Shown here piece by piece: positions 1-24,980 of a DNA stretch of 27,090 bases; positions within the stretch are counted from its first letter, which is position 1; each line of letters starts with the position of its first letter. Location of the stretch: contig NW_004797277.1 of assembly GCF_000002075.1 (NCBI RefSeq), positions 1,013,946 through 1,041,035 on the forward strand. The letters are read 5' to 3'. This stretch comes from Aplysia californica. Taxonomy: Eukaryota. The notes under the pieces were generated by a model. It saw nothing but the letters and a program-made list of their open reading frames with translations, searched no databases and had not been told where the DNA came from. The translations under genes were made by a program, and so were the position numbers.

Positions 1-140
1 TGTCGTTGTATTTCTAAGATTGTCGTTGTATTTCTAAGATTGTCGTTGTATTTCTAAGATTGTCGTTGTATTTCTAAGATTGTCGTTATATTTCTAAGAT
101 TGCCGTTGTAGTTCTAAGATTGTCGTTGTATTTCTAATAA
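1..140. repeat. 20-bp minisatellite (TGTCGTTGTATTTCTAAGAT)x7, probably continuing upstream of the window
   Basis: There are four perfect copies, then variants tgtcgttata..., tgccgttgtagttctaagat and tgtcgttgtatttctaataa. Confidence 0.95.
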
Positions 141-4189: not shown

Positions 4190-4846
4190 CTATAGTGCGG
4201 TCAAAAATTCGTGGTGCAACCTATCCTCAAATATCTCTTTAACAGGTGAATCAATGTCATCCATACTTTGCATAGCAGTTTGTATCAACTTGTCATAACT
4301 AAATCTCATTTTTCTAAAACAATTGGGTCCAGATTAAAAACATTTTCTCCATAAATTTATATAAAATACTTGAAATCTCTGTCACGCGTAAATTTGTATT
4401 GTTCACAGCACTTCCCGCTTCTCACTCATATTTTGATTACTCGTATGGCCTACGTCACAGCTCATCAAAGACAATTTTTACTTGCAAAACTTGTTACAAG
4501 ATATTATTGTTATACTGAACATATTTTTGCACTAATGGCTCTCAAAACATGCGTTCAATAAGCATAATGTCCCGATTAGAAAAACCTGACAGACTTGCTA
4601 TTAAAAGCTATATTGCCCCAGCTGTAAACATTTAAAAATCTGTAGAAACCGCCCACTTGGATGTTTTATTAGTATTTATTAAGTAATTTTCTAGAATACA
4701 GCTTGCAGGTGTTTGAAAAAATGTTGATCTGCTAAGACAAATTGATACAAGTCACTGTGCAAAAATTGGAGAACCTAGATCTATGTTCGATAGTTCAGCA
4801 GATATTTGAAAATAAGTCGCACCACGAATTTTTGACCGCACTATAG
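4190..4846. mobile_element. Putative MITE bounded by about 46-bp inverted repeats (4190-4236 and 4801-4846)
   Basis: ctatagtgcggtcaaaaattcgtggtgcaacctatcctcaaatatc against the reverse complement of gatatttgaaaataagtcgcaccacgaatttttgaccgcactatag (about 41 of 46). The internal 560 bp is AT-rich and non-coding. Termini and TSD are not resolved. Confidence 0.4.
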
Positions 4847-6514
4847 TACAGTACTAGAATGGGATTCACTTCGCGCAGAGGTATGACGTCAACACAGATT
4901 TACGCAGCAATGCTCCTCCAAAGACGAGCTGTACTACATTCATCACCCAGTTTTTCCAATAAACAATCACCAAGGGCACTTTTTGTTGCAATTCCACTGG
5001 TGATTGTGCTTTATGAATGCAATAAAAACTACAACATCCAGCATGACTACAGAAGCAGAGAAGAGGCTATCGCCCATTCTGCCTCTCAGGCCGGTGCACA
5101 CGAGGAAAATTTCTTCTCATGACACGGCTGCAAAGTATGACGTCAGCACCTAGACATGGATGGCTGATGCCCAGTGCAGTCTAAAGTATCTAGCACAGTG
5201 ATTAGGCCCTACTATACATAATATAAATACAGGTATGGTCTCTGATCGATCCCACACTGCTGGTACTGCATCTATAAATAGAGTATTCATAATTATAGGC
5301 TGTGAAGTACGATGTCGCTTGGAAGTGAAGAGAGACAAACGGGCCAGAAATTGCTTAATTTGCATACAAGCAGCAGTGCCACGAATGAAAATTTTCCTGG
5401 TGTGCAGGTGCCTTATGCAGAAAGGAATTGTCTGCTCTGTAAGGCCCAGACCTGCTTTGGTCTTGTGAAGTTGATCTCGGACTAACCAGAAGCTTCATTG
5501 GAGTCCTCATTATGACGGATGGTGGATATGACAGTTTTTCATTTGTTTCAATTGGAATATGTCCTCTGGTCGCTTCCTTGAAAGGGTCCGTTTTGCAAGA
5601 ATCTTTTTTTGTTTTTCTAACAGTCCCAAACATCATCAATCCACAGGCCTCGAGAGCTAAAGCAAGAGTCATATAAAATTAGATACCAGTAAACCAGTCA
5701 AAATTCAGTTGCTTTTTTTCCAGTTAATCAAAATACCTTTCCCGCCCTGGCAGGCACTTTGTATTTTTTAGGGGGGTACATTTTGGCAGAAAAATGTCTT
5801 AAGGGGGGGGCAGCTGAAGGCTATCTCGCTTATTAGAAGATCAAATGTTACCAAATTCCACACAAAATATAACAAGCACAGTAAGGAGTCTTAAAATTAT
5901 CCAGAATCAAAATTGAGAAAGAAAAATTAGTTTCCATGGATAAGGTGGCCAAATTGGATTTTGTTGATGTCTTACGTAATTAATATCACACTTAGATTTC
6001 ATGGAATTAAATTGGATTTTTTGTATGCATTTTGGCAAAAAATAGATCTACAAATCTGTGTGATGAATTTTGACTAAATGTGCTTGAACATTTTTAATTA
6101 ATTTTTTCCTGCGGTAGTATTCACGTTTGCAAAATATCCATGAAAGTCCACACTCCAAGCACCACCAATAAAAACTATTCCGTACATCAAAAATGCATGA
6201 CACAGAGAGAGTTTTAGTATTACACCTTTTCTTCATTCTGAGAAAATACCATTAAGATTGGATGAAAAATGGTGGAGTCATTTTTAAAAAGTATTTAAAA
6301 ACCATGTTTTGAGAAAACGGGTTATAAAGAAAAATAAAAGATTGACTTTATGAGAAAATGGTGGTGACAAACATGCCCAGTACAGGAAGAAAGAAGGCTT
6401 TAGGGGGTTCTTAAGCGATGAAACAGTTGTAAGAGAGGCTGAAGAAGCTAAAAATGCCTACAACTTAAAATCCATAGTTTTGAGCCGAATCGGGACTTTC
6501 AGGGTGCCGATCCC

Positions 6515-6531: not shown

Positions 6532-6750
6532 AAACTTTACTAAGAGGGATACAGCATCCAAGCACGAAAGAGTCTTATAGTCACTAAAACTTGTTAAAAA
6601 GATCAAAGCTAACATGTCAAAACTGTACACATACATAGTAAGAAACGCAAAACGGTAGATTAAAAACCATAATTGTATACTTTTTATTAGGAAGAAAACA
6701 ACCCCTATATAGAATTCAGGTTGGGTCCTTGTGTGTGAGTTTAAGAATAT

Positions 6751-6759
6751 GTGTGTGTG

Positions 6760-6831
<72 letters not shown>

Positions 6832-6834: not shown

Positions 6835-7689
6835 GCGTTCAGGCATGCAAGCTTGTATTACATAGGCCTACATGCTTGTCAAGTGAAAGCCACAGGACAC
6901 CTACTGTGTCTACACCTATATGTAAATGTGTTTGAACATATGTATGTAATAAAAAAGGACAGTGCTATCACAGTGATAAGCTCTAAAAATAAGTTAGCTG
7001 TGTCTGCAACTGTTTTAAAATGAGCAGTAAGAATATATAATAAAAGTACCATGAAAAATTTCATCAGTTAAATATTATCTTATCAAAAGGCACCTCCACT
7101 GACTGAAACCAAACAATCAGAGAATATACGCAGACAAACGAAAGCATACATAAATAGTGGCTGCTCACAACAAAGCTGGTCCAGATGGTAAAACGATTCA
7201 GAATTGGTATGCATCAACTCTGTATAGAGATATGAAATTATGTTAAAAAAGAACAGATAAACAAAGCATCAATTAAAGGCCCATTTGGAACATCTTAATT
7301 CTTAAGAAACATAATAAGACAAAGCAACAGGGAGCAGGATGTTAAAGAACAACCCCAAATGCACACTCACAAAAAGATACATTTTTTAAAGAGTACACAC
7401 GCACTCATTGAAATCTAAAGAATCTAAACATGCATTGTGAGCTGCCTCTATGACAATTTTGAAATAAAAACCTGACGCAATGTAAGAGCTCACAAAGTTA
7501 GTATATCACAGGAGGAAATATCTAAATACATGTATGTGTACAAAAAAAAAAGAGCTGTTCATTACTTTTACCAATACATTTGGGGCAGGCAATAGACAGC
7601 ATGAACTGTGTAAAACCGGAAAAAACTTGAGACTGGGCAAAGACAAGAGAGCCATTTTGTGGTGTGACATACCAACTGTCAGGAGTCTC

Positions 7690-7900
7690 GGAGATGAAAA
7701 GTCTTTTCGTTTTAGTAAGAGAAGAGTTTTACAGCGCTTGCAAAACAATAAGGTAATGAAAATGCCATAGATTAGAGGTGTTACAAGAGAGCAACAAACA
7801 CATAAAAGAAGGAGGAGAGATAAGGATGATAGATAGATGTCAGATAAGAAAAAAGGTGCAAACAACACCAGAGCACCCGGCAGCCATCTACAGATGTATA
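7690..7900 (+). repeat. Dispersed repeat family C, copy 1 (about 200 bp)
   Basis: gttttagtaaga...cttgcaa...gccatagattagaggtgttacaagagagcaacaaacacataaaagaaggaggagagataagg...gataag...caaacaacaccagagcacccggcagcc, against 24770-24980. Confidence 0.65.
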
Positions 7901-8299: not shown

Positions 8300-8790
8300 G
8301 CAAGCTGACCATTGACCAGTAGATTGATGCACCACAAACATCGAACATTTGTGAGACATCATGGTGAAAGACAGGCGCCTGTCAAAATAATGAAATCAAG
8401 GAAACCAGCATTTTCCGCCGGTTTGCCAATCTTTATCAGATTTTTGTTTTTTGGCTCAACAACTTTCATATTCATTTTATTAATACATTTCTGTGTGGAT
8501 GTTACTCAAAAACACTGACTTTAAAAAATGCAAATTTGCAGCTTCCTAGGACTCTCAAACTTTGGAAGTCGCCAGCTTAAGGGGCGAATTTCTCTATAAT
8601 TTTACCTCAAGACTATGCAACCCCCACCTCATTCAATCCCAAATATCTCAACTTCTATTCAAGATAGTTGAATATTTTTAAAATCTAAAGCAAGACAAAT
8701 GAACAAGATTTAATAGCTCCCCAAGCCCAATACCTGATGAGCACCTGATTCCATGGCATCATGACACATTTGATCACTGCTAGCAGTTCA
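8300..8790 (+). repeat. Dispersed repeat family B, copy 1 (about 450 bp, unclassified)
   Basis: It is colinear with 23930-24392. Shared blocks include gtcaaaataatg, tttctgtgtg.at, aaactttgg, attcaatc.caaata, ttcaaga.a.atag, aagcaagacaaatgaacaag, tgatgag.gcctgatt and catgacacattt. Confidence 0.7.

Positions 8791-9199: not shown

Positions 9200-9286
<87 letters not shown>

Positions 9287-10776: not shown

Positions 10777-10817
<41 letters not shown>
10777..10817. repeat. (CA)n microsatellite of about 20 units, preceded by (CT)3
   Basis: Direct reading. Confidence 0.98.
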
Positions 10818-10820
<3 letters not shown>

Positions 10821-11479: not shown

Positions 11480-12218
11480 TTTATTTACTGATTCTTAATC
11501 TGTTGTGTACCTTGCATGTGACCGAAAAACATTTGTCCAAATTTGATTTCTAAAAGTTGAAAAAAGCAAGAAAAGATACACAATGTAGGTGCAATTTTTC
11601 AACAGATTTACTTTATCTCTAGGAAAATTTCGTTTTCTGGGCGTAGACCAGTTGACCAGCTTGCCTGCAATATGAATTCCACTACAATTTTCATGGCCTC
11701 TATTTCCTTCTAATGAAGGTCATAACAGTACACTCAATCATTTCAATTATGTTTATACTATTGACTTTGAATCAGTCTGTGACTCACTGCACAAAAAATT
11801 CAACAAACCTCGAAAGTTCTACAAAATACTTAAAATCTAGTCTAAAGTTAAAGTCCAATTCCAATTAAAGAAAAGTCTGAAAGAAACATGTACGTCATTT
11901 GATCTTATTCAATCCATCTTCAAAAACAGAGATTTGAACAGGATATTTATAACATTTGATCTTATTCACAGCCTGTGCTCAACAAATCAAGAGTTCAACA
12001 AAACATTTATATCATTAAGAACAGATCATATTCACAGTCTGTACTCAACAAATAAAGAGTTCAACAAGACATTTATATCATTAAGAATTGATCATATTCA
12101 CAGTCTGTACTCAACAAATAAAGAGTTCAACAAGACATTTATATCATTAAGAGTTGACTATATTCACAGTCTGTACTCAACAAATAAAGAGTTCAACATC
12201 ACAGCAAGACGTCGGGAG
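11480..12218 (-). other. MVP: Putative MVP 3'UTR. It contains a 66-bp tandem repeat. The first minus-strand AATAAA downstream of the stop is at 11480-11485
   Basis: This is the region immediately downstream (minus sense) of the TAA. Plus-strand tttatt at 11480-11485 is the first canonical poly(A) signal on the gene strand. The transcript end cannot be set from sequence alone. Confidence 0.25.
11880..12205. repeat. 66-bp tandem repeat, about 4.5 copies (3 near-identical, 1.5 diverged), starting about 15 bp after the MVP stop codon
   Basis: The unit acatttatatcattaagaattgatcatattcacagtctgtactcaacaaataaagagttcaacaag starts at 12003, 12069 and 12135 (period 66). Diverged copies lie at 11880-12002. 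It produces the artifactual plus-strand track ORF 11934..12317. Confidence 0.9.
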
Positions 12219-16144: not shown

Positions 16145-16880
16145 CTAGTGAAGAAATAACCAATCACACACAGAACATGAAAAGGAGTAAAACTCATGGG
16201 CCTCAACTCAGAATTTTAAAAAAGGAGGAACTTTCCTCGTGATCGTGACAGAAGACCATTTTTGCGAGACACCCATTATCATTATACTGTAAAACCCTAG
16301 AATGCTGAAAAAACCCCCACCAATTTATCAAAGCAAGGTTATTTCATACCAATTTGAGGGTATGGAAGATGATTTCAAGTAAAAGAGTAGCAGTAACTGA
16401 GTTTAGCGGAGGAAATGGTGGTAGCGGGAATCCACTAAATAGCAGAATATTGAGACCCATAAAAACTAAACGGCAGAGGATGGTGGGAGGGGGAGAGGGA
16501 TGGGGAGAAACAAGTTGATTAAAGACAAAATGACACAATGAGGACAGTGTTGACAACAAAGTAAAGAATGTTCCCTTGGACCTATGAACAAATTTCTCAT
16601 TTATTTAAGATCTTGATCCCCTTGGGCAGGTCCCCCAGCATAAATCATTTTAAAAAGTGGTCAGCCATCTTCAACATATTCAAGATTTCGATCATTTGAA
16701 TTGACACCCCCATCCCCAACCCCCCATACATATCTTTGCCCAACCTATTTTCCACGCACTTCAAAATGAGATGCACTTTAACAATCATCAACATACAGTA
16801 GTAAGTTATAACAAAGGGTGGGACAAAAATCTGTGGATGGGGATAAATGGAAACGACACAGAGCGTGTTATTCAGGCCAG

Positions 16881-16903
16881 TTGTTGCTGTTGTTGTTGTT
16901 GTT
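16881..16903 (-). repeat. (CAA)n 3' tail of the LINE (reads as TTG repeats on the plus strand)
   Basis: ttgttgctgttgttgttgttgtt lies immediately 3' of the ORF2 stop on the element strand. Confidence 0.7.
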
Positions 16904-17294
16904 ATCGATCCAGCAACATCTGGGCTCTCGCCCTTCTGTCCAATGCCATGTAGTGATAAGTGCAGGTTTGCTGCAGTTGCTGTAATGTTCCGTAGAGTGT
17001 GTTGTCGAAGTTAGGTCTCGGAGGGAGAAGGGTAGCTCTGATGTCATTTAGGGCTGTACAGTGGAAAAGGTGATGTTCCACTGTCTCATATGCATGGTCA
17101 CACAAAGGACACATTGGGGGAAGTTCTGGTTTTATTCTGTTTAAGTGAAAGTTGAGCTGTATATGTTCTGTTCGTAGGCGGAAGATCGTGGTCTGTTTCT
17201 TTCTCTGTAGGTGGTTGATATTGTCATTTCGTTTTGTTGTAGTCATATGTTTGAAAACTGCTCTGCCCGTCTTTCCCAAGGCCCATCTGTTCAT
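16902..17294 (-). pseudogene. LINE ORF2 C-terminal cysteine-rich (CCHC zinc-knuckle) domain. It is frameshifted relative to the RT/RNase H frame
   Basis: CPLCDHAYETVEHHLFHC in the track ORF 16902..17294(-). This frame differs from the upstream 17291..18856 frame, which is a decay frameshift. The stop TAA at 16902-16904 directly abuts the (CAA)n tail. Confidence 0.75.
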
Positions 17295-18856
17295 CCAATC
17301 TTGTTTGCTGTTGCTTTTAATGATTTGTTTTGCAGTGTGGTATGAAGTTGGAATGTTGGTTGTTCCTGTCTAGATCCCCTTTTGGCGAGTGTGTCTGCTC
17401 TGTCATTTCCAGGTATGTTTGAGTGTCCGGGAATCCACTGCATCACCAGGTTGACGCCACAGAATGTTATCAGATGATGGGAGCCAAACAGTATATGTGT
17501 CAAGTCTTCATTTAGATGGTGATAATTTTCTATTGCTTGCAAGACTGATAATGAGTCAGTGAAGATCACTATACTCTGGGTTTTGTTTGGATGAGTGTCA
17601 AAAACTGTGCGGAGATGGTATAGTGCTGTTTCAATTGCTATCATTTCTGCGTCGTAGTTGTTGCATTTCTCTCCACAGGCTGCAGAGATCTCATTGGAAC
17701 TTCCATCTGGGTATTGTATTAGTATTCCATATCCGGCTTTGGTTGTGCCTTTGAATGCTGAGCCGTCTGTATAGACCTGTATCCAGTCATCTGAATAGCT
17801 GTCGATTGTTTGGTGTGAAAGCATCAACTTCACTGGGTCTGAAGATTTTGTGCTATTGTCTCTAAGAGAAGTTTTAATGATTGGTTTTTCCATAGAAAAG
17901 TGAGGAGGGATGTTTTGGTTGACTCTTTTGGTTTCTCTTCTATTTTGTGGTAGGTGGTGGCTCTCCATTAGTTCTGTGATGCGATGCATGACTGATTTTT
18001 GTTGAAGTCGTTTCTTTGGTTTCCATGTTTCTACTAATTTCCTGTTTGGGTGGTTGGGGCACATTCTTTTGGTTCTTTCATGAAGCTCCAAAACTGTTTT
18101 ATCTCTGCGTATTCCCAGGGGTTCAACATTTGACAGAATTTCACATGCGGCAGTAGGTGTAGATCTCATGCCACCATTAATGAAACGAAGGGCATTATTT
18201 TGGACCTTGTCAAGGGTATTGCAAGTAGTTGCACTACACGTAGTGAGTAGGCTATTGCTGTATTCCAGGGAAGATCGGACATAACCAAGGTATAGAGCTC
18301 TCAGAATTTGTTTGTCTGATCCCCATGAACTGCTCGCAAGTTTCTTTAAAAGTTGGAGTCTTCTTTTCGCCTTGTTCTTTATGCTCTCCACTTGGCTTTT
18401 CATTGTTAGACTTTGGTCAAGTTTGACTCCTAGATACGTTGGTTGTTCTTCTTTGGGGAGATTTTCATTTCCTATCTTCAGTTGGAGTTTTTCTTTGGCT
18501 ATTTTATGGCTCTTTGTAAAGATGGTGTATACTGTTGTCGAGCAGTTTATTTTGAGCTTCCATTTCTGACAGTAATTGTGGAGCCTCTTGAGGTCTTCAT
18601 TTAATTTTCCTGCTCCTACTACCGTGCTGCGATGTGTCTGCCAGAGAGCAAGATCATCAGCGTAGAGAGTCTTTTCTGATTTCAACACGTTCGTCACATC
18701 ATTAATGAAGATCAGGAACAAAGTGCAACTCGGAGAGGAACCTTGGGGTAGGCCCTCCTCGAGTACTTCTCTTGATGAGTGGGCATTGTTCAGGCCAGTA
18801 GGAGTTAAGATTATATCAATAACTCCACTTGCCCAAACATTGACAAGCGACTGATT
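17291..18856 (-). pseudogene. LINE ORF2 fragment: reverse transcriptase (motifs A-like, B, C and later) plus RNase H. The open frame is bounded upstream by a stop at 18857-18859 and has no true start
   Basis: This extends the track ORF 17291..18721. Its first 'M' is actually TTG, and the frame stays open upstream through GLPQGS (motif B) to a TGA. The motif 2 to motif A spacing is collapsed to about 6 codons (internal deletion), and the catalytic D of motif A is lost. Confidence 0.85.
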
Positions 18857-19349
18857 TCACAGCACCATGACACATATGAGGAGTGAAATCCTGACTCTTC
18901 ATGAAGGGAAACATTGTATCATCACTCTCTTCAAAAACCTTCAATACTTCTACAAACCAATCAGTAGTCTAATAAATATATTTTCATTCCCATTTCTTTT
19001 GTACAAACATACAGCAGTGCAAGTGGACTTGATACATCATCATCATCATCCAGTGCCTTGCCGACTGGATTGGGCGATCATGGACCTCCACTTCACTCTG
19101 TCTTGTGTTGCAGCAATGGTGTCTGTTGTTCTTGCTGCTCCCAGCCATGTTGTCATCTTGTCCAGTATCTTTTCCCTCTATCAGCCTCTGCCTCTCTTTC
19201 CACCAAACTTGCCTGTTGTTACAATATTCTCCAATGCTTCTTTCCGCATTGTGTGTCCAAAGAAATTTGCCTGTCGCTTTATACATATTCATGAAAAAAA
19301 AAAGGTGTGGTTAGACCTCTTGGGTCCTTTTACATGCAGTATGACTCAC

Positions 19350-19474
19350 CAGATTGTTCACATCAAATCTCAAAGACTGCTGCTTCCCAAACACTGCTGC
19401 TTGTATGAGCTGGGCAGAGTGGCGGTGGAACTCGTCAAAAGTAATCAATGCAACCGAGGCACGGATACGGCTAG
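19350..19474 (-). CDS. MVP: MVP exon 10: (A)[41 protein letters not shown]
   Basis: Acceptor ccttttttatgcctcttcag|CT and donor AATCTG|gtgagt. It matches human [31 protein letters not shown]. Confidence 0.88.
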
Positions 19475-19923
19475 CTGAAGAGGCATAAAAAAGGTCACAC
19501 TGTACACTCTATTCAATGAGTCTGAGATGTCTCTAATAATGGCATATCAAAACACTGAGTACAAAAAATCCTTAGAAATAAAAAATAAAACAAAAACAAA
19601 AAACTATATACTCTGCAGATATCATTACCAGTCCGACATAGTACAATTTTAGTACAAACCAAAGATGACACAAAACAACATTATTTGTGAATCTACTTTG
19701 CTGGGATTGCTAGAAAAAGAAGTTTAAGAAAAAAACAGCAACCCAAAACTATTCTACTACACAGCTAAGAGCCATCAACCAATATTTTAGGAAAAATTAT
19801 ACCCTAAAATTGCACAAAAACAATTCTTTTAAAAAAGAGTCATCCAAAGCTAGATTTAATTGTAAGATTGATGAATGCTAAATATTGCAACATCATTTCT
19901 TTAAAACTACTCATCATTTCTCA

Positions 19924-19974
19924 TTTAGTAGAGGTTTTACGGCGCTCGCAGCTGCATAAGGTCATATGAGCGCC
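19924..19974 (+). repeat. 51-bp hairpin-containing element, copy 1 (inverted partner at 21500-21550)
   Basis: tttagtagaggttttacGGCGCTCgcagctgcataaggtcatatGAGCGCC. It has an internal 7-bp stem (GGCGCTC/GAGCGCC) and a gtcatatgac palindrome. Confidence 0.85.
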
Positions 19975-20053
19975 AATCATCATTTCTGATTTTAAAAAAC
20001 CAAAACAAGTACACTGTCAATGTTGCCAAACTTCAGATAGCTTGTAAAATTAC

Positions 20054-20132
20054 CTATCTGACGACAGGCAAATCCGATGAAATCAGGCACTGAAAATATT
20101 TTGCGAGTACTCTCCAGGTCTGTTTTGTCCAC
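20054..20132 (-). CDS. MVP: MVP exon 9: VDKTDLESTRKIFSVPDFIGFACRQI(A)
   Basis: Acceptor ctctctgtgtttttaag|GTG and donor ATAG|gtaatt. It matches human [28 protein letters not shown]. Confidence 0.9.
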
Positions 20133-21185
20133 CTTAAAAACACAGAGAGAGTAGAAAGACATTTTAACACATAAATTTGAGTATAGAAATGTTCATGCTG
20201 AAAAAAATGTGTCCAGTTTTATTAAAGCAATGGGCATCGCTGATTATTCTTTAAAAAATGAAACGAGACATTTTTAATGGATGCAAACTTAAGTTTTAAA
20301 TCTCTTTTACAATGCTCTGGAACTTCACTTTTGTTTTCAAGGACAGACGGAAAAAAAGAGCATATTGAACTATTTTCCCAATTCAGTCTATTGTATTTAT
20401 CAAAAAACATACCAAACAGAGATATATTGAAAAGGATATAGATTACGATTTGAAAATACAACAAGACACATTTTTACAAACTTTATTAAAATTTTTATTA
20501 TTGCAAACAAGGTAATAATAGTTTTACCATTATAAGAAATTGTATCTACTCCTTCAGCTAGATCTTAGGGTAAGTAAGAATAGAATGTCAACCTGGGTGT
20601 TACTAATTTGTTTTCCTACAAGAACAAAGAGTCCTTCACCTTTCAGAGTGCTAAATGCCATTCCCAAAGGTTTTTTTACTTATTTGTACCAAAGAGTATT
20701 TCTTCTCCTCCGACTAAGGATGAACTTGGAATTACAAGTGCTTTTCCCTTCCTTTAACATTCAAGTACCAAGGAGTTTGTAAAATATATACAAACTGTAA
20801 AACTTTTGGCCTGCTACATCCTTCCCTATCTATTTTAACCAAGGGAGGAAACCTGCATAGAAAACTAACTCATCTTCAGCTGCACAGTGGTGATCAGCAA
20901 TGGCATGTTTGTGAAACTGTTCTGTATTGGTGTGATATTGTGTATTTATGTATAAATTCAAATGTGCATTTATGTATCTATTTCTTATTATGTATTTACG
21001 TATGGGTGTTTGCCATTGTAACCCAAATTTCCCTACGTGTATCAATAAAATGTAATTTATTTTCTTTCTATTTAAACACCACTGTACTAATCTTTAGCAG
21101 AACCTGCTTCTTTGGAATAGTAGGTGTGCACAGTGCATATATCTCCACACTACCAAGCTCGTCAGTCAGCATCTACATTACTTAC

Positions 21186-21245
21186 ATCAAAATAGTTGTT
21201 AAAGGCAAGGCGAATACGCAATCTGGCATGATCAGAAGTCTCCAC
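21186..21245 (-). CDS. MVP: MVP exon 8: VETSDHARLRIRLAFNNYFD
   Basis: Acceptor cgtctttttcag|GTG and donor TTTGAT|gtaagt (perfect donor). It matches human [20 protein letters not shown]. Confidence 0.9.
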
Positions 21246-21499
21246 CTGAAAAAGACGTACATAAGAGAAAATGGTCACAATATATGCATTCTTTTCTTAT
21301 ATATACAATAAGTTGGTAATCTGTTCAGAAGATAGTTCTGCCACGATCAAATGATTATAAAGGACTCCGCTCAACTATTTCGATTATGCTGCAGCATGAA
21401 AACAAACAAGATGAAAGTTTACCAAACATCTATCGTCCTTATCTCCCCTCCTTCTTTTTTATGTTTTATGTTACTCTCTTGTAACAGCTCTAATCTTCT

Positions 21500-21550
21500 G
21501 GCGCTCATATGACCTTATGCATTTGTGAGCGCCGTAAAACCTCTACTAAA
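21500..21550 (-). repeat. 51-bp hairpin-containing element, copy 2 (reverse complement of 19924-19974, about 47 of 51 identical)
   Basis: ggcgctcatatgaccttatgcatttgtgagcgccgtaaaacctctactaaa. Flanks beyond the 51 bp are unrelated. Confidence 0.85.
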
Positions 21551-21615
21551 ACTAAAAAATACAAGATGAATAATTAGGAAATAAGTGATGAAGATAAAAT
21601 GTGACAGGTTCTTAC

Positions 21616-21695
21616 CTCAATAACGTCAGTAATGAAATCTGGACCAAGCATGAGGCACAATGATTTCAGTGCATTGGGCAGCTTTGGTTTGCCAG
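21616..21695 (-). CDS. MVP: MVP exon 7: (A)[26 protein letters not shown]
   Basis: Acceptor ttattgtttatgcag|CT and donor ATTGAG|gtaaga. It matches human [29 protein letters not shown]. Confidence 0.9.
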
Positions 21696-23929: not shown

Positions 23930-24392
23930 GCATTTACACTTACATATTTGTCAAATGTTAAATTGGCAAAACACATGGCAGCACAGTGAAATCAGGTGCT
24001 TGTCAAAATAATGTAGTCAGAGAATCAGACATTTTTGCCCCCTCTTGGGCAATTTTAACCATTTTTTTCCCCTTTGACTTTTCACATTTTACATGTATAA
24101 AGTCACATTTCTGTGTGAATTTAAAGGAAAAAATTTTGATCAAGGCACCAAAAAAGCTCTTTTAAATCAATAAACTTTGGCGGCCATTTTCTCAGTAATA
24201 TAACATTTAACACCAGGAGACTAACCTCCTTCAATCACAAATACCTGGACTTCAATTCAAGACAAGATAGGTATTTTTTTCATCAAAAGCAAGACAAATG
24301 AACAAGTTTTAAGATTATACAACCGACTCCATATGCCCAAAAATTGATGAGTGCCTGATTACACCGCGTCATGACACATTTTTACAGTCTAT
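23930..24392 (+). repeat. Dispersed repeat family B, copy 2, inside an MVP intron
   Basis: See copy 1. The block order is the same over about 400 bp. Confidence 0.7.
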
Positions 24393-24769: not shown

Positions 24770-24980
24770 TATCCCTGAGGATAGATTTGTTATGTTTTAG
24801 TAAGACTTTAAGGCACTTGCAACGAGAATGGGTCATACAAGTGCCAGAGATTAGAGGTGTTAGTTACAAGGGAGTAACAAACACAGAAAAGAAGGAGAGA
24901 TAAGGGGGATAGATATCTGACGGATAAGGAGGAGCAAACCACACTAGAGCACCCGCCAACCACCCACAAAGGCTTGTTGA
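24770..24980 (+). repeat. Dispersed repeat family C, copy 2 (MVP intron)
   Basis: gttttagtaagactttaaggcacttgcaacgag...gccagagattagaggtgttagttacaagggagtaacaaacacagaaaagaaggagagataaggg...gataagga...caaaccacactagagcacccgccaacc. Confidence 0.65.

What the first reader, a model, noticed from the sequence alone, without database searches (positions are those of the whole stretch)
19924..21550. 51-bp near-perfect inverted repeats in flanking introns bracket exactly two MVP exons
Copies at 19924-19974 (+) and 21500-21550 (-) sit in the introns either side of exons 21186-21245 and 20054-20132. In pre-mRNA they can pair across about 1.5 kb. Intronic inverted repeats flanking exons are the known driver of back-splicing (circRNA) and can also promote exon skipping. 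The two bracketed exons total 139 nt, so skipping them would frameshift. Each copy also contains its own 7-bp stem hairpin, so this is a small structured element (a MITE or SINE fragment) rather than random similarity.
Basis: partly seen in the sequence, partly recalled or inferred. Interest (0 to 1): 0.55.

Follow-up and report, generated by a model that had tools for sequence, protein, structure and literature searches.

The report
Inverted retroposon fragments flanking two MVP exons
Two truncated copies of one small mobile element landed in opposite orientations in the introns around two exons of the major vault protein gene, so the pre-mRNA could fold back on itself there, but this is an ordinary by-product of transposon activity and no effect on splicing has been shown.

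Summary
Window 19924-19975 and 21499-21550 are a 52-nt inverted repeat with 49 of 52 bases complementary, far beyond chance. It brackets exactly two minus-strand MVP exons, 21245-21186 (60 nt) and 20132-20054 (79 nt), which encode shoulder-domain residues 529-575.

The arms are not a dedicated structure. They are the shared 3' ends of two independently inserted, 5'-truncated copies of one non-LTR retroposon family. The window holds four copies: A 19924-19976, B 21416-21558, C 24786-24976 and D 7701-7900. All four share one 3' end (stem-loop, then ...CTACTAAAAC). Three have target-site duplications of 12-16 bp, and none has terminal inverted repeats. So the family is SINE-like or a LINE tail, not a MITE.

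Predicted pairing is strong: -90 kcal/mol, with pair probability 0.93 in the 1.7-kb pre-mRNA context. Repeats this short can drive back-splicing in human and fly minigenes. Against an effect here:
- the circle would be only 139 nt;
- the upstream intron is only 370 nt;
- copy C in an upstream intron is transcribed earlier and can pair with B over about 140 nt (-134 kcal/mol);
- two related species' MVP loci carry no recognisable copy of the family.

Skipping both exons would frameshift to a stop after 9 codons. No expression data were available, so any circRNA or exon skipping remains untested.

The parts
19924..19976 (-). Copy A: about 50-nt, severely 5'-truncated retroposon copy containing only the 3' stem-loop and tail. 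It is the downstream arm of the inverted repeat and lies in the 579-nt intron after exon 20132-20054, 78 nt from that exon's 5' splice site. It is sense to the MVP transcript.
   Evidence: nhmmer E = 5e-14 to the family profile.
19911..19926 (.). Target-site duplication of copy A, left copy: TCATCATTTCTCATTT.
   Evidence: (D8). It matches 15 of 16 bases, and 0 of 2000 shuffles reach this.
19977..19992 (.). Target-site duplication of copy A, right copy: TCATCATTTCTGATTT.
   Evidence: (D8).
21416..21558 (+). Copy B: about 140-nt, 5'-truncated retroposon copy. Its 3' part, 21499-21550, is the upstream arm of the inverted repeat. It lies in the 370-nt intron between exon 21695-21616 and exon 21245-21186, and is antisense to the MVP transcript.
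   Evidence: nhmmer E = 1.6e-40. Flanking 12-bp duplication A[A/T]ACAAGATGAA at 21404-21415 and 21559-21570 (D3, 24, 41; 18 of 2000 shuffles reach it).
21186..21245 (-). MVP exon, 60 nt, phase 0, encoding VETSDHARLRIRLAFNNYFD (human MVP residues 529-549). This is the first bracketed exon.
20054..20132 (-). MVP exon, 79 nt, encoding VDKTDLESTRKIFSVPDFIGFACRQI plus 1 nt (residues 550-575). This is the second bracketed exon.
21616..21695 (-). Upstream flanking MVP exon, 80 nt, residues about 502-528. Its donor GT is at 21615-21614.
19350..19474 (-). Downstream flanking MVP exon, 125 nt, residues about 576-617. If it were joined directly to exon 21695-21616, the frame would shift and stop after 9 codons (LAVSVPRLH*).
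24786..24976 (-). Copy C: older, about 190-nt copy of the same family, in the MVP intron between the exons near 25581-25516 and 24717-24622. It has the same orientation as A, so it is also complementary to B and is a competing pairing partner. Its stem is kept through compensatory changes (GGCACTTG/CAAGTGCC).
   Evidence: (D7, D11, D12).
7701..7900 (-). Copy D: older, about 190-nt copy of the same family. It lies downstream of the MVP gene and therefore outside its pre-mRNA. Candidate 12-bp duplication GACT[A/T]T[A/T]CATCT.
   Evidence: 18 of 2000 shuffles reach the duplication.

Best explanation
The inverted repeat is a by-product of two independent insertions of one small non-LTR retroposon family, either SINE-like or a LINE 3'-tail fragment. 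Both insertions went into neighbouring MVP introns, in opposite orientations.

Both copies are 5'-truncated and keep the family's 3' end: a 7-8-bp GC-rich stem-loop followed by ...GTAAAACCTCTACTAAAAC. By analogy with 'stringent' LINE/SINE pairs, this is the part a partner LINE reverse transcriptase would recognise. That step is inferred.

Because A and B belong to the same young subfamily (94% identical), the pre-mRNA contains a near-perfect 52-nt complementary pair about 1.5 kb apart. The pair encloses exons 21245-21186 and 20132-20054. This is shown from the sequence.

The duplex is thermodynamically able to form (shown in silico). It would bring the 5' splice site at 20053 next to the 3' splice site at 21246. 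It may therefore allow low-level back-splicing to a 139-nt circle, or skipping of both exons, which would frameshift and probably lead to nonsense-mediated decay. Both outcomes are inferred.

The most likely biological status is a neutral or nearly neutral, lineage-specific pair of transposon insertions with at most a minor effect on MVP splicing.
For: - The repeat is real and non-random.
- The window holds four family copies with a common 3' end and different 5' extents: D 7701-7900, C 24786-24976, B 21416-21558, A 19924-19976.
- Flanking direct repeats are 16 bp for A (0 of 2000 shuffles), 12 bp for B (18 of 2000) and 12 bp for D (18 of 2000). They differ in sequence between copies, so the insertions were independent.
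- No copy has terminal inverted repeats, only the internal hairpin.
- The hairpin is kept across diverged copies: 90.6% of cells paired, against 31-56% when the partner columns are slid, and 3 of 8 pairs change on both sides.
- A and B are 94% identical to each other but only 74-79% to C and D, so they are a young subfamily.
- MVP exon identity and splice sites are confirmed.
- Pairing is strong: duplex -90.2 kcal/mol, against about -29.5 for the two self-hairpins together and -24 +/- 4 for shuffles; 49 inter-arm pairs in the minimum-free-energy fold; mean pair probability 0.93.
- In human minigenes, inverted repeats of 30-40 nt are sufficient for circularisation (PMC4201285). In fly laccase2, pairing over an approximately 55-nt complementary region between transposon copies is necessary for it (PMC4617980).
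- The MVP loci of two related species (L001, L002) show no copy of the family. L002 contains both homologous exons and their flanking introns.
Against: - No RNA data exist, so no splicing consequence has been observed.
- The partner LINE, and any full-length element with a pol III head, were not found. The only LINE fragment in the window (16880-18721) ends in (CAA)n and shares no tail with the family. ARAGORN and Rfam find no tRNA, 7SL or 5S head. The choice between SINE and LINE tail is therefore open.
- The genome-wide copy number could not be measured, because the species is not in the searchable collections.
- Only four sequences support the hairpin covariation, and the shuffle control is modest (25 of 500).
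- Against a splicing effect: the exons are short (139 nt in total), and ZKSCAN1 exons of 400 nt or less circularised poorly or not at all. The upstream intron is short (370 nt). Copy C competes for B. Not all repeats support circularisation, and very stable hairpins can inhibit it.
Confidence: 0.8

Rival explanations
1. The inverted pair is a functional cis-element. A-B pairing in the MVP pre-mRNA drives appreciable back-splicing of the two exons into a 139-nt circRNA, or an intron-retaining circle of about 1.2 kb. Alternatively it drives regulated skipping of both exons, giving a frameshifted nonsense-mediated-decay substrate that tunes vault protein output.
For: - The near-perfect 52-nt complement lies close to the relevant splice sites: 253 nt upstream of the 3' splice site and 78 nt downstream of the 5' splice site.
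- Duplex energy is -90 kcal/mol and pair probability is 0.93.
- Repeats of 30-40 nt suffice in human minigenes, and pairing over an approximately 55-nt complementary region between transposon copies is necessary in fly laccase2.
- Skipping gives a premature stop after 9 codons.
Against: - No expression data are available.
- The circle would be very small, and short exons circularised poorly in the one systematic test read here.
- The 370-nt upstream intron is likely to be removed quickly. This is inference.
- Copy C is transcribed before B and can sequester it (-133.7 kcal/mol).
- The insertions are young and absent from the MVP loci of related species, so there is no sign of selection.
- 'Not all repeats support circularization'.
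Confidence: 0.12
2. The element is a MITE or other DNA-transposon-derived foldback element. On this reading the internal hairpin is what remains of its terminal inverted repeats.
For: - Each copy contains a palindromic GGCGCTC...GAGCGCC stem.
- The elements are short and lie in introns.
Against: - The stem is internal, followed by a unique tail of about 17-20 nt, and is not at both termini.
- The longer copies B, C and D have no terminal inverted repeats.
- Flanking duplications are 12-16 bp and differ in length. MITEs give a fixed short duplication; this contrast rests on general knowledge of MITE biology.
- Copies share one end and are truncated to different extents at the other, which is typical of target-primed reverse transcription.
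Confidence: 0.03
3. The main consequence of the intronic duplex is not on splicing. It would instead be a double-stranded RNA substrate for ADAR (A-to-I hyper-editing) or Dicer (endo-siRNAs) within the MVP pre-mRNA.
For: - The near-perfect 52-bp RNA helix is predicted with high probability.
- ADAR is reported to act on such intronic repeat duplexes and thereby antagonise circularisation (as cited in PMC4617980).
Against: This rests purely on inference. No RNA-seq or small-RNA data are available, and the organism and its ADAR or Dicer repertoire are unidentified.
Confidence: 0.05

Closest known systems
Inverted DNAREP1_DM transposon copies flanking exon 2 of Drosophila laccase2 (Kramer et al. 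2015, PMC4617980)
   Same: - Lineage-specific transposon copies in opposite orientation sit in the two introns next to the exon(s).
- The critical complementary region is about 55 nt, against 52 nt here.
- The copies are not conserved in related species.
   Different: - In laccase2 the back-splice product and its dependence on base-pairing were shown experimentally. Here nothing is measured.
- Laccase2 has a single exon flanked by introns of more than 9 kb. Here two very short exons (139 nt in total) are flanked by introns of 370 and 579 nt.
- The element type differs. This is a retroposon tail, not DNAREP1.
Inverted Alu pairs flanking circularising human exons, e.g. ZKSCAN1 exons 2-3 (Liang and Wilusz 2014, PMC4201285)
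   Same: - SINE-type retroposon copies in opposite orientation flank a pair of exons.
- 30-40 nt of complementarity is sufficient there, and 52 nt at 94% is available here.
- Competition between alternative repeat partners is expected in both cases. Here that competitor is copy C.
   Different: - ZKSCAN1 exons of 400 nt or less circularised poorly or not at all. Here the exons total 139 nt.
- Alu is 7SL-derived with a poly(A) tail. This family has a stem-loop plus a short unique tail, and no identified pol III head.
'Stringent' LINE/SINE 3' tails with a conserved stem-loop, e.g. eel UnaL2/UnaSINE1 and CR1/L2-type tails (from my own knowledge of Kajikawa and Okada 2002; mollusc SINE tails shared with CR1 LINEs are described in PMC4758252)
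   Same: - A conserved stem-loop lies about 15-20 nt from the 3' end and is maintained by compensatory changes between subfamilies.
- 5' truncation is variable.
- Target-site duplications are present.
   Different: - No partner LINE with this tail was found. The only LINE in the window has a (CAA)n tail.
- Recognition of the stem-loop by a reverse transcriptase is inferred, not tested.
- No sequence match could be made to the published mollusc SINE families. Their consensus sequences are not in the accessible text, and the organism itself is unidentified.

Membership tests
Intronic complementary sequences that promote exon circularisation (Alu or DNAREP1 type) | Reverse-complementary sequences, one in the intron upstream and one in the intron downstream of the exon(s). 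| tested here: met
   Arms at 21499-21550 (upstream intron) and 19924-19975 (downstream intron) on the minus-strand transcript.
Intronic complementary sequences that promote exon circularisation (Alu or DNAREP1 type) | At least about 30-40 nt of base-pairing, stable relative to local alternatives. | tested here: met
   49 of 52 bases pair; -90.2 kcal/mol against -29.5 for the self-hairpins; pair probability 0.93 in the 1.7-kb context. The length threshold comes from PMC4201285.
Intronic complementary sequences that promote exon circularisation (Alu or DNAREP1 type) | No stronger competing partner elsewhere in the same pre-mRNA. | tested here: not met
   Copy C (24786-24976) pairs with B over about 140 nt, at -133.7 kcal/mol against -91.7 for B-A, and it is transcribed first. 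In a 5.1-kb equilibrium fold, B's 3' part still pairs with A.
Intronic complementary sequences that promote exon circularisation (Alu or DNAREP1 type) | An observed back-spliced junction or RNase-R-resistant product. | not testable with these tools
   No transcriptome data are available for this unidentified species.
SINE / non-autonomous non-LTR retroposon | Flanking target-site duplications of variable length and sequence. | tested here: met
   A 16 bp (15 of 16 matching, 0 of 2000 shuffles); B 12 bp (18 of 2000); D 12 bp (18 of 2000); C not significant (177 of 2000).
SINE / non-autonomous non-LTR retroposon | A common 3' end with variable 5' truncation among copies. | tested here: met
   The nhmmer profile positions covered are 2-190 (D, C), 52-190 (B) and 129-181 (A).
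SINE / non-autonomous non-LTR retroposon | A pol III-type head (tRNA, 7SL or 5S derived, with A and B boxes). | tested here: not met
   ARAGORN finds no tRNA-like gene. Rfam gives nothing at gathering score and only chance-level hits in the 5' regions of C and D. The longest copies may themselves be truncated, so this does not exclude a SINE.
SINE / non-autonomous non-LTR retroposon | A 3' tail shared with an autonomous partner LINE. | tested here: inconclusive
   The only LINE fragment in the window (16880-18721; RNase H and zf-RVT domains, (CAA)n tail) shares no similarity with the family.
SINE / non-autonomous non-LTR retroposon | High genomic copy number. | not testable with these tools
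   There are 4 copies in 27 kb of window. Two metagenome scans, one exact 22-mer and one degenerate 41-mer, gave 0 hits. The species is absent from the protein collections.
MITE | Terminal inverted repeats at both element ends. | tested here: not met
   There are no terminal inverted repeats in B, C or D, only the internal 8-bp hairpin.
MITE | A fixed short target-site duplication. | tested here: not met
   The duplications are 16, 12 and 12 bp, with different sequences.
Major vault protein gene (host gene) | Sequence match to the MVP shoulder domain and to solved MVP chains across the exon junctions. | tested here: met
   Pfam PF11978, E = 6.2e-37. PDB MVP residues 503-609, E = 3e-38.

The most novel reading that the evidence does not exclude
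In this lineage, the young inverted retroposon pair might have created a new MVP isoform switch. One outcome would be an unusually small (139-nt) exonic circRNA from the shoulder-domain exons. The other would be an unproductive exon-skipping isoform degraded by nonsense-mediated decay. Which outcome occurs would depend on whether B pairs with A or with the upstream copy C. That would be a natural three-way competition between repeats that tunes vault protein levels.
Probability: 0.07. Interest if true: 0.35.

Novelty: new member of a known kind. Interest (0 to 1): 0.17.

Why it matters
The practical value is modest. Inverted transposon copies in flanking introns are the textbook route to exon circularisation, and they are common in repeat-rich animal genomes.

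This case gives a clean, well-delimited candidate in a non-model invertebrate. It has a 52-nt near-perfect pair, two tiny exons, and a third competing copy. If RNA from the species were available, it could test how small a circle and how short a flanking intron the repeat-pairing mechanism tolerates.

It also documents an apparently undescribed short retroposon family whose 3' stem-loop is maintained by compensatory substitutions. That would be useful for repeat annotation of this genome.

Tried and rejected
1. Genome-wide copy count. The exact 22-mer TAGTAGAGGTTTTACGGCGCTC and a degenerate 41-nt hairpin pattern both gave 0 hits in metagenome contigs.

2. Identifying the organism.
- A single MVP exon gave at best 82% identity, to unnamed ENA fragments.
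- A 276-aa spliced MVP query gave at best 65%. The named hits, a rotifer and a contaminant, were uninformative.
- The best named relatives of the LINE ORF are the gastropods Elysia marginata (53-55%) and Biomphalaria glabrata (43%).
- The source is probably a mollusc or another spiralian, but this is unresolved.

3. Matching the element to published SINE families.
- A full-text search for six 11-14-mers of the element returned only chance matches.

4. Rfam and ARAGORN, for a structured-RNA or tRNA-head identity, gave nothing above chance.

5. The LINE fragment in the neighbouring intron as the partner element was rejected. It shares no tail similarity and ends in (CAA)n.

6. A local inverted duplication as the origin of the pair was rejected. 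Homology stops at the element boundaries, the two copies have different target-site duplications, and they are truncated at different points.

7. I used the human MVP sequence recalled from memory only as a tblastn probe to locate exons. The exon model was then verified independently against PDB and Pfam.
Full report
**1. The observation**

The inverted repeat is real. The repeat finder reports arms 19924-19975 and 21499-21550, 52 nt, 94% complementary, with 1523 nt between them. A 34-mer covering the hairpin and a 22-mer covering the tail each occur only at these two places with up to 3 mismatches. Dinucleotide-preserving shuffles of the window gave 0 matches. Each arm folds on its own into a 7-bp GGCGCTC/GAGCGCC hairpin, extendable to 11 bp in the 21499-21550 copy.

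**2. The gene context**

The window carries the 3' two-thirds of a major vault protein (MVP) gene on the minus strand, from about residue 309 to the stop codon at 12221-12219.

The two bracketed exons are:
- 21245-21186: 60 nt, preceded by ...TTTTTCAG and followed by GTAAGT.
- 20132-20054: 79 nt, preceded by ...TTTTTAAG and followed by GTAATT.

Their joint translation aligns to residues 529-575 of solved MVP chains (E = 3.5e-11).

I defined the flanking exons as 21695-21616 and 19474-19350. The four-exon spliced product aligns without interruption to MVP residues 503-609 (E = 3e-38) and matches Pfam MVP_shoulder (E = 6e-37). So exactly two exons lie between the arms.

The introns measure:
- 370 nt (21615-21246), which contains arm B.
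- 1053 nt, between the two bracketed exons.
- 579 nt (20053-19475), which contains arm A.

The arms lie 253 nt upstream of the 3' splice site at 21246 and 78 nt downstream of the 5' splice site at 20053. Skipping both exons (139 nt) shifts the frame and gives a stop after 9 codons, LAVSVPRLH*.

**3. What the arms are**

They are two of four copies of one interspersed repeat family in the window:

| Copy | Window coordinates | Element sense strand | Length | Position relative to MVP |
|---|---|---|---|---|
| D | 7701-7900 | minus | about 190 nt | downstream of the gene, outside its pre-mRNA |
| C | 24786-24976 | minus | about 190 nt | in an upstream MVP intron |
| B | 21416-21558 | plus | about 140 nt | in the 370-nt intron |
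| A | 19924-19976 | minus | about 50 nt | in the 579-nt intron |

All four share the same end: a stem-loop, then GTAAAAC..CT(C/T)TACTAAAAC. They differ in how far they extend the other way. The nhmmer profile positions covered are 2-190, 2-190, 52-190 and 129-181.

Three copies are flanked by direct repeats:
- A: the 16-bp TCATCATTTCT[C/G]ATTT (0 of 2000 shuffles reach this).
- B: the 12-bp A[A/T]ACAAGATGAA (18 of 2000).
- D: the 12-bp GACT[A/T]T[A/T]CATCT (18 of 2000).

C has no significant flanking repeat. None of the longer copies has terminal inverted repeats, only the internal hairpin.

A constant 3' end, variable 5' truncation, and long target-site duplications of variable length are the signature of target-primed reverse transcription by a LINE enzyme. 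This interpretation rests on established knowledge of non-LTR retroposition. It is not the signature of a MITE.

On this reading the element's sense strand is the one ending in ...CTACTAAAAC. The 52-nt arm is then the 3' tail of the family.

The stem is maintained between diverged copies. C has GGCACTTG/CAAGTGCC, with two compensated positions. In D's sense strand, two of the stem positions are G-U wobble pairs. Overall 90.6% of cells are paired, against 31-56% when partner columns are slid, and 3 of 8 pairs change on both sides. With only four sequences this is suggestive rather than proof; 25 of 500 shuffles do as well.

A conserved 3' stem-loop just upstream of a short tail is what 'stringent' LINE/SINE pairs use for recognition by the reverse transcriptase. 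This comes from my own knowledge of UnaL2/UnaSINE1. Mollusc SINE tails shared with CR1 LINEs are described in PMC4758252. That role is inferred here.

A and B are 94% identical to each other but only 74-79% identical to C and D. They therefore come from a younger subfamily.

**4. What could not be established about the element**

- No tRNA, 7SL or 5S head was found.
- The only LINE fragment in the window (16880-18721, minus strand; RNase H and zf-RVT domains) ends in (CAA)n and shares nothing with the family.
- So whether the family is a true SINE or a set of LINE 3' ends remains open.
- The source species is not in the searchable collections. The best MVP exon hit is 82% identical and the best spliced-MVP hit is 65%.
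- Two metagenome scans for the element gave nothing.
- The best named relatives of the LINE ORF are gastropods: Elysia marginata at 53-55% and Biomphalaria glabrata at 43%. This hints at a mollusc but does not prove it.

**5. Conservation**

Two MVP loci from related, unnamed organisms were retrieved (L001 and L002; the queried exon is 77-80% identical in protein).

L002 contains the homologues of both bracketed exons (6189-6266 and 7075-7164) together with their flanking introns. L001 covers only the second exon, so only L002 is informative for the upstream intron. Neither locus has any recognisable copy of the family. The insertions are therefore lineage-specific, and there is no evidence that selection keeps them.

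**6. Pairing potential**

- On the minus-strand transcript the two arms form a duplex of -90.2 kcal/mol. The two self-hairpins together give about -29.5, and shuffled partners give -24 +/- 4 (minimum -38).
- In the minimum-free-energy fold of the 1721-nt pre-mRNA segment, 49 pairs join the arms.
- In the partition function, the mean probability of the in-register pairs is 0.93, with 47 of 52 positions above 0.9.
- Copy C lies in an upstream MVP intron in the same orientation as A. It is complementary to the whole of B, with a duplex of -133.7 kcal/mol over about 140 nt, against -91.7 for B-A.
- C is transcribed about 3.2 kb before B, and A about 1.5 kb after B. Co-transcriptional folding could therefore sequester B with C. 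This is inference.
- In a 5.1-kb equilibrium fold, B's 3' part still pairs with A: 49 bases with A and 0 with C.
- C-B pairing would instead bracket the exons encoding about residues 397-528.

**7. How it most likely works**

Shown:
- two independent retroposon insertions;
- a strong potential intronic duplex enclosing two exons;
- a frameshift if the two exons are skipped.

Inferred: the duplex may bring the 20053 donor and the 21246 acceptor together and permit some back-splicing or exon skipping.

Literature read here supports feasibility:
- Inverted repeats of 30-40 nt suffice for circularisation in human minigenes (PMC4201285).
- In fly laccase2, pairing over an approximately 55-nt complementary region between lineage-specific DNAREP1_DM transposon copies is necessary for circularisation (PMC4617980).

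The same papers give reasons for caution:
- Not all repeats work, and strengthening a hairpin can inhibit circularisation.
- ZKSCAN1 exons of 400 nt or less circularised poorly or not at all.
- ADAR and competing repeats modulate the outcome.

Here the circle would be only 139 nt, the upstream intron is short, and a competitor exists. My estimate is that the pair is essentially a neutral transposon by-product (about 0.8). I give about 0.12 to a real, measurable splicing effect, and less than that to a selected function.

**8. Novelty and verdict**

Inverted transposon copies flanking exons are a well-known kind of feature. This is a new instance, formed by what appears to be an undescribed retroposon family in an unidentified invertebrate.

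It needs two corrections. The element is a retroposon tail, not a MITE, and pairing is not specific to this pair. The functional claim is untested. Interest is low.

Noticed in passing
window 24786-24976: A third copy (C) of the same retroposon family lies in an upstream MVP intron, in the same orientation as arm A. It is predicted to pair with copy B over about 140 nt (-133.7 kcal/mol). It is therefore a competing partner that would bracket a different set of exons, encoding about residues 397-528.
   Followed up: yes
window 16880-18721 (minus strand): A 5'-truncated LINE fragment lies inside the MVP intron between exons 19474-19350 and about 16144-16046. It has a reverse-transcriptase C-terminus, RNase H (PF00075) and zf-RVT (PF13966) in two frames, and ends in a (CAA)n tail. 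Its best named relatives are gastropod proteins (Elysia marginata 53-55%, Biomphalaria glabrata 43%). It is unrelated to the hairpin element.
   Followed up: partly
window 8372-8771, 23993-24381 and 18805-18875: A second interspersed repeat family, about 400 nt and 73-77% identical between copies. All copies are in the same orientation, and two of them lie in MVP introns. It was not classified.
   Followed up: no
window 4190-4321 and 4710-4846: A foldback-like element of about 657 bp. Its inverted arms are about 139 nt (73% identical), with an inner 54 nt that is 87% complementary (CTATAGTGCGGTCAAAAATTCGTGGTGCAACC...). It may be a MITE or another DNA-transposon relic with terminal inverted repeats, and it lies downstream of MVP.
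   Followed up: no
window 11956-12198: A 66-bp tandem repeat of 3.7 copies (93% matches) begins about 20 nt after the MVP stop codon (12221-12219). It therefore probably lies in the 3' UTR.
   Followed up: no
window 1-137; 6750-6831; 9203-9284; 10779-10818: A 20-bp minisatellite of 6.8 copies runs off the window's start. There are also long dinucleotide microsatellites: (TG)41, (AG)41 and (CA)20. The (TG)n and (CA)n tracts are about 4 kb apart and form a spurious 'inverted repeat'.
   Followed up: no
L002 6189-7164 (related species' MVP locus): In a related organism, the homologues of the two bracketed exons have the same exon structure, with introns of about 700-950 nt. None of them carries a copy of the hairpin retroposon.
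   Followed up: partly
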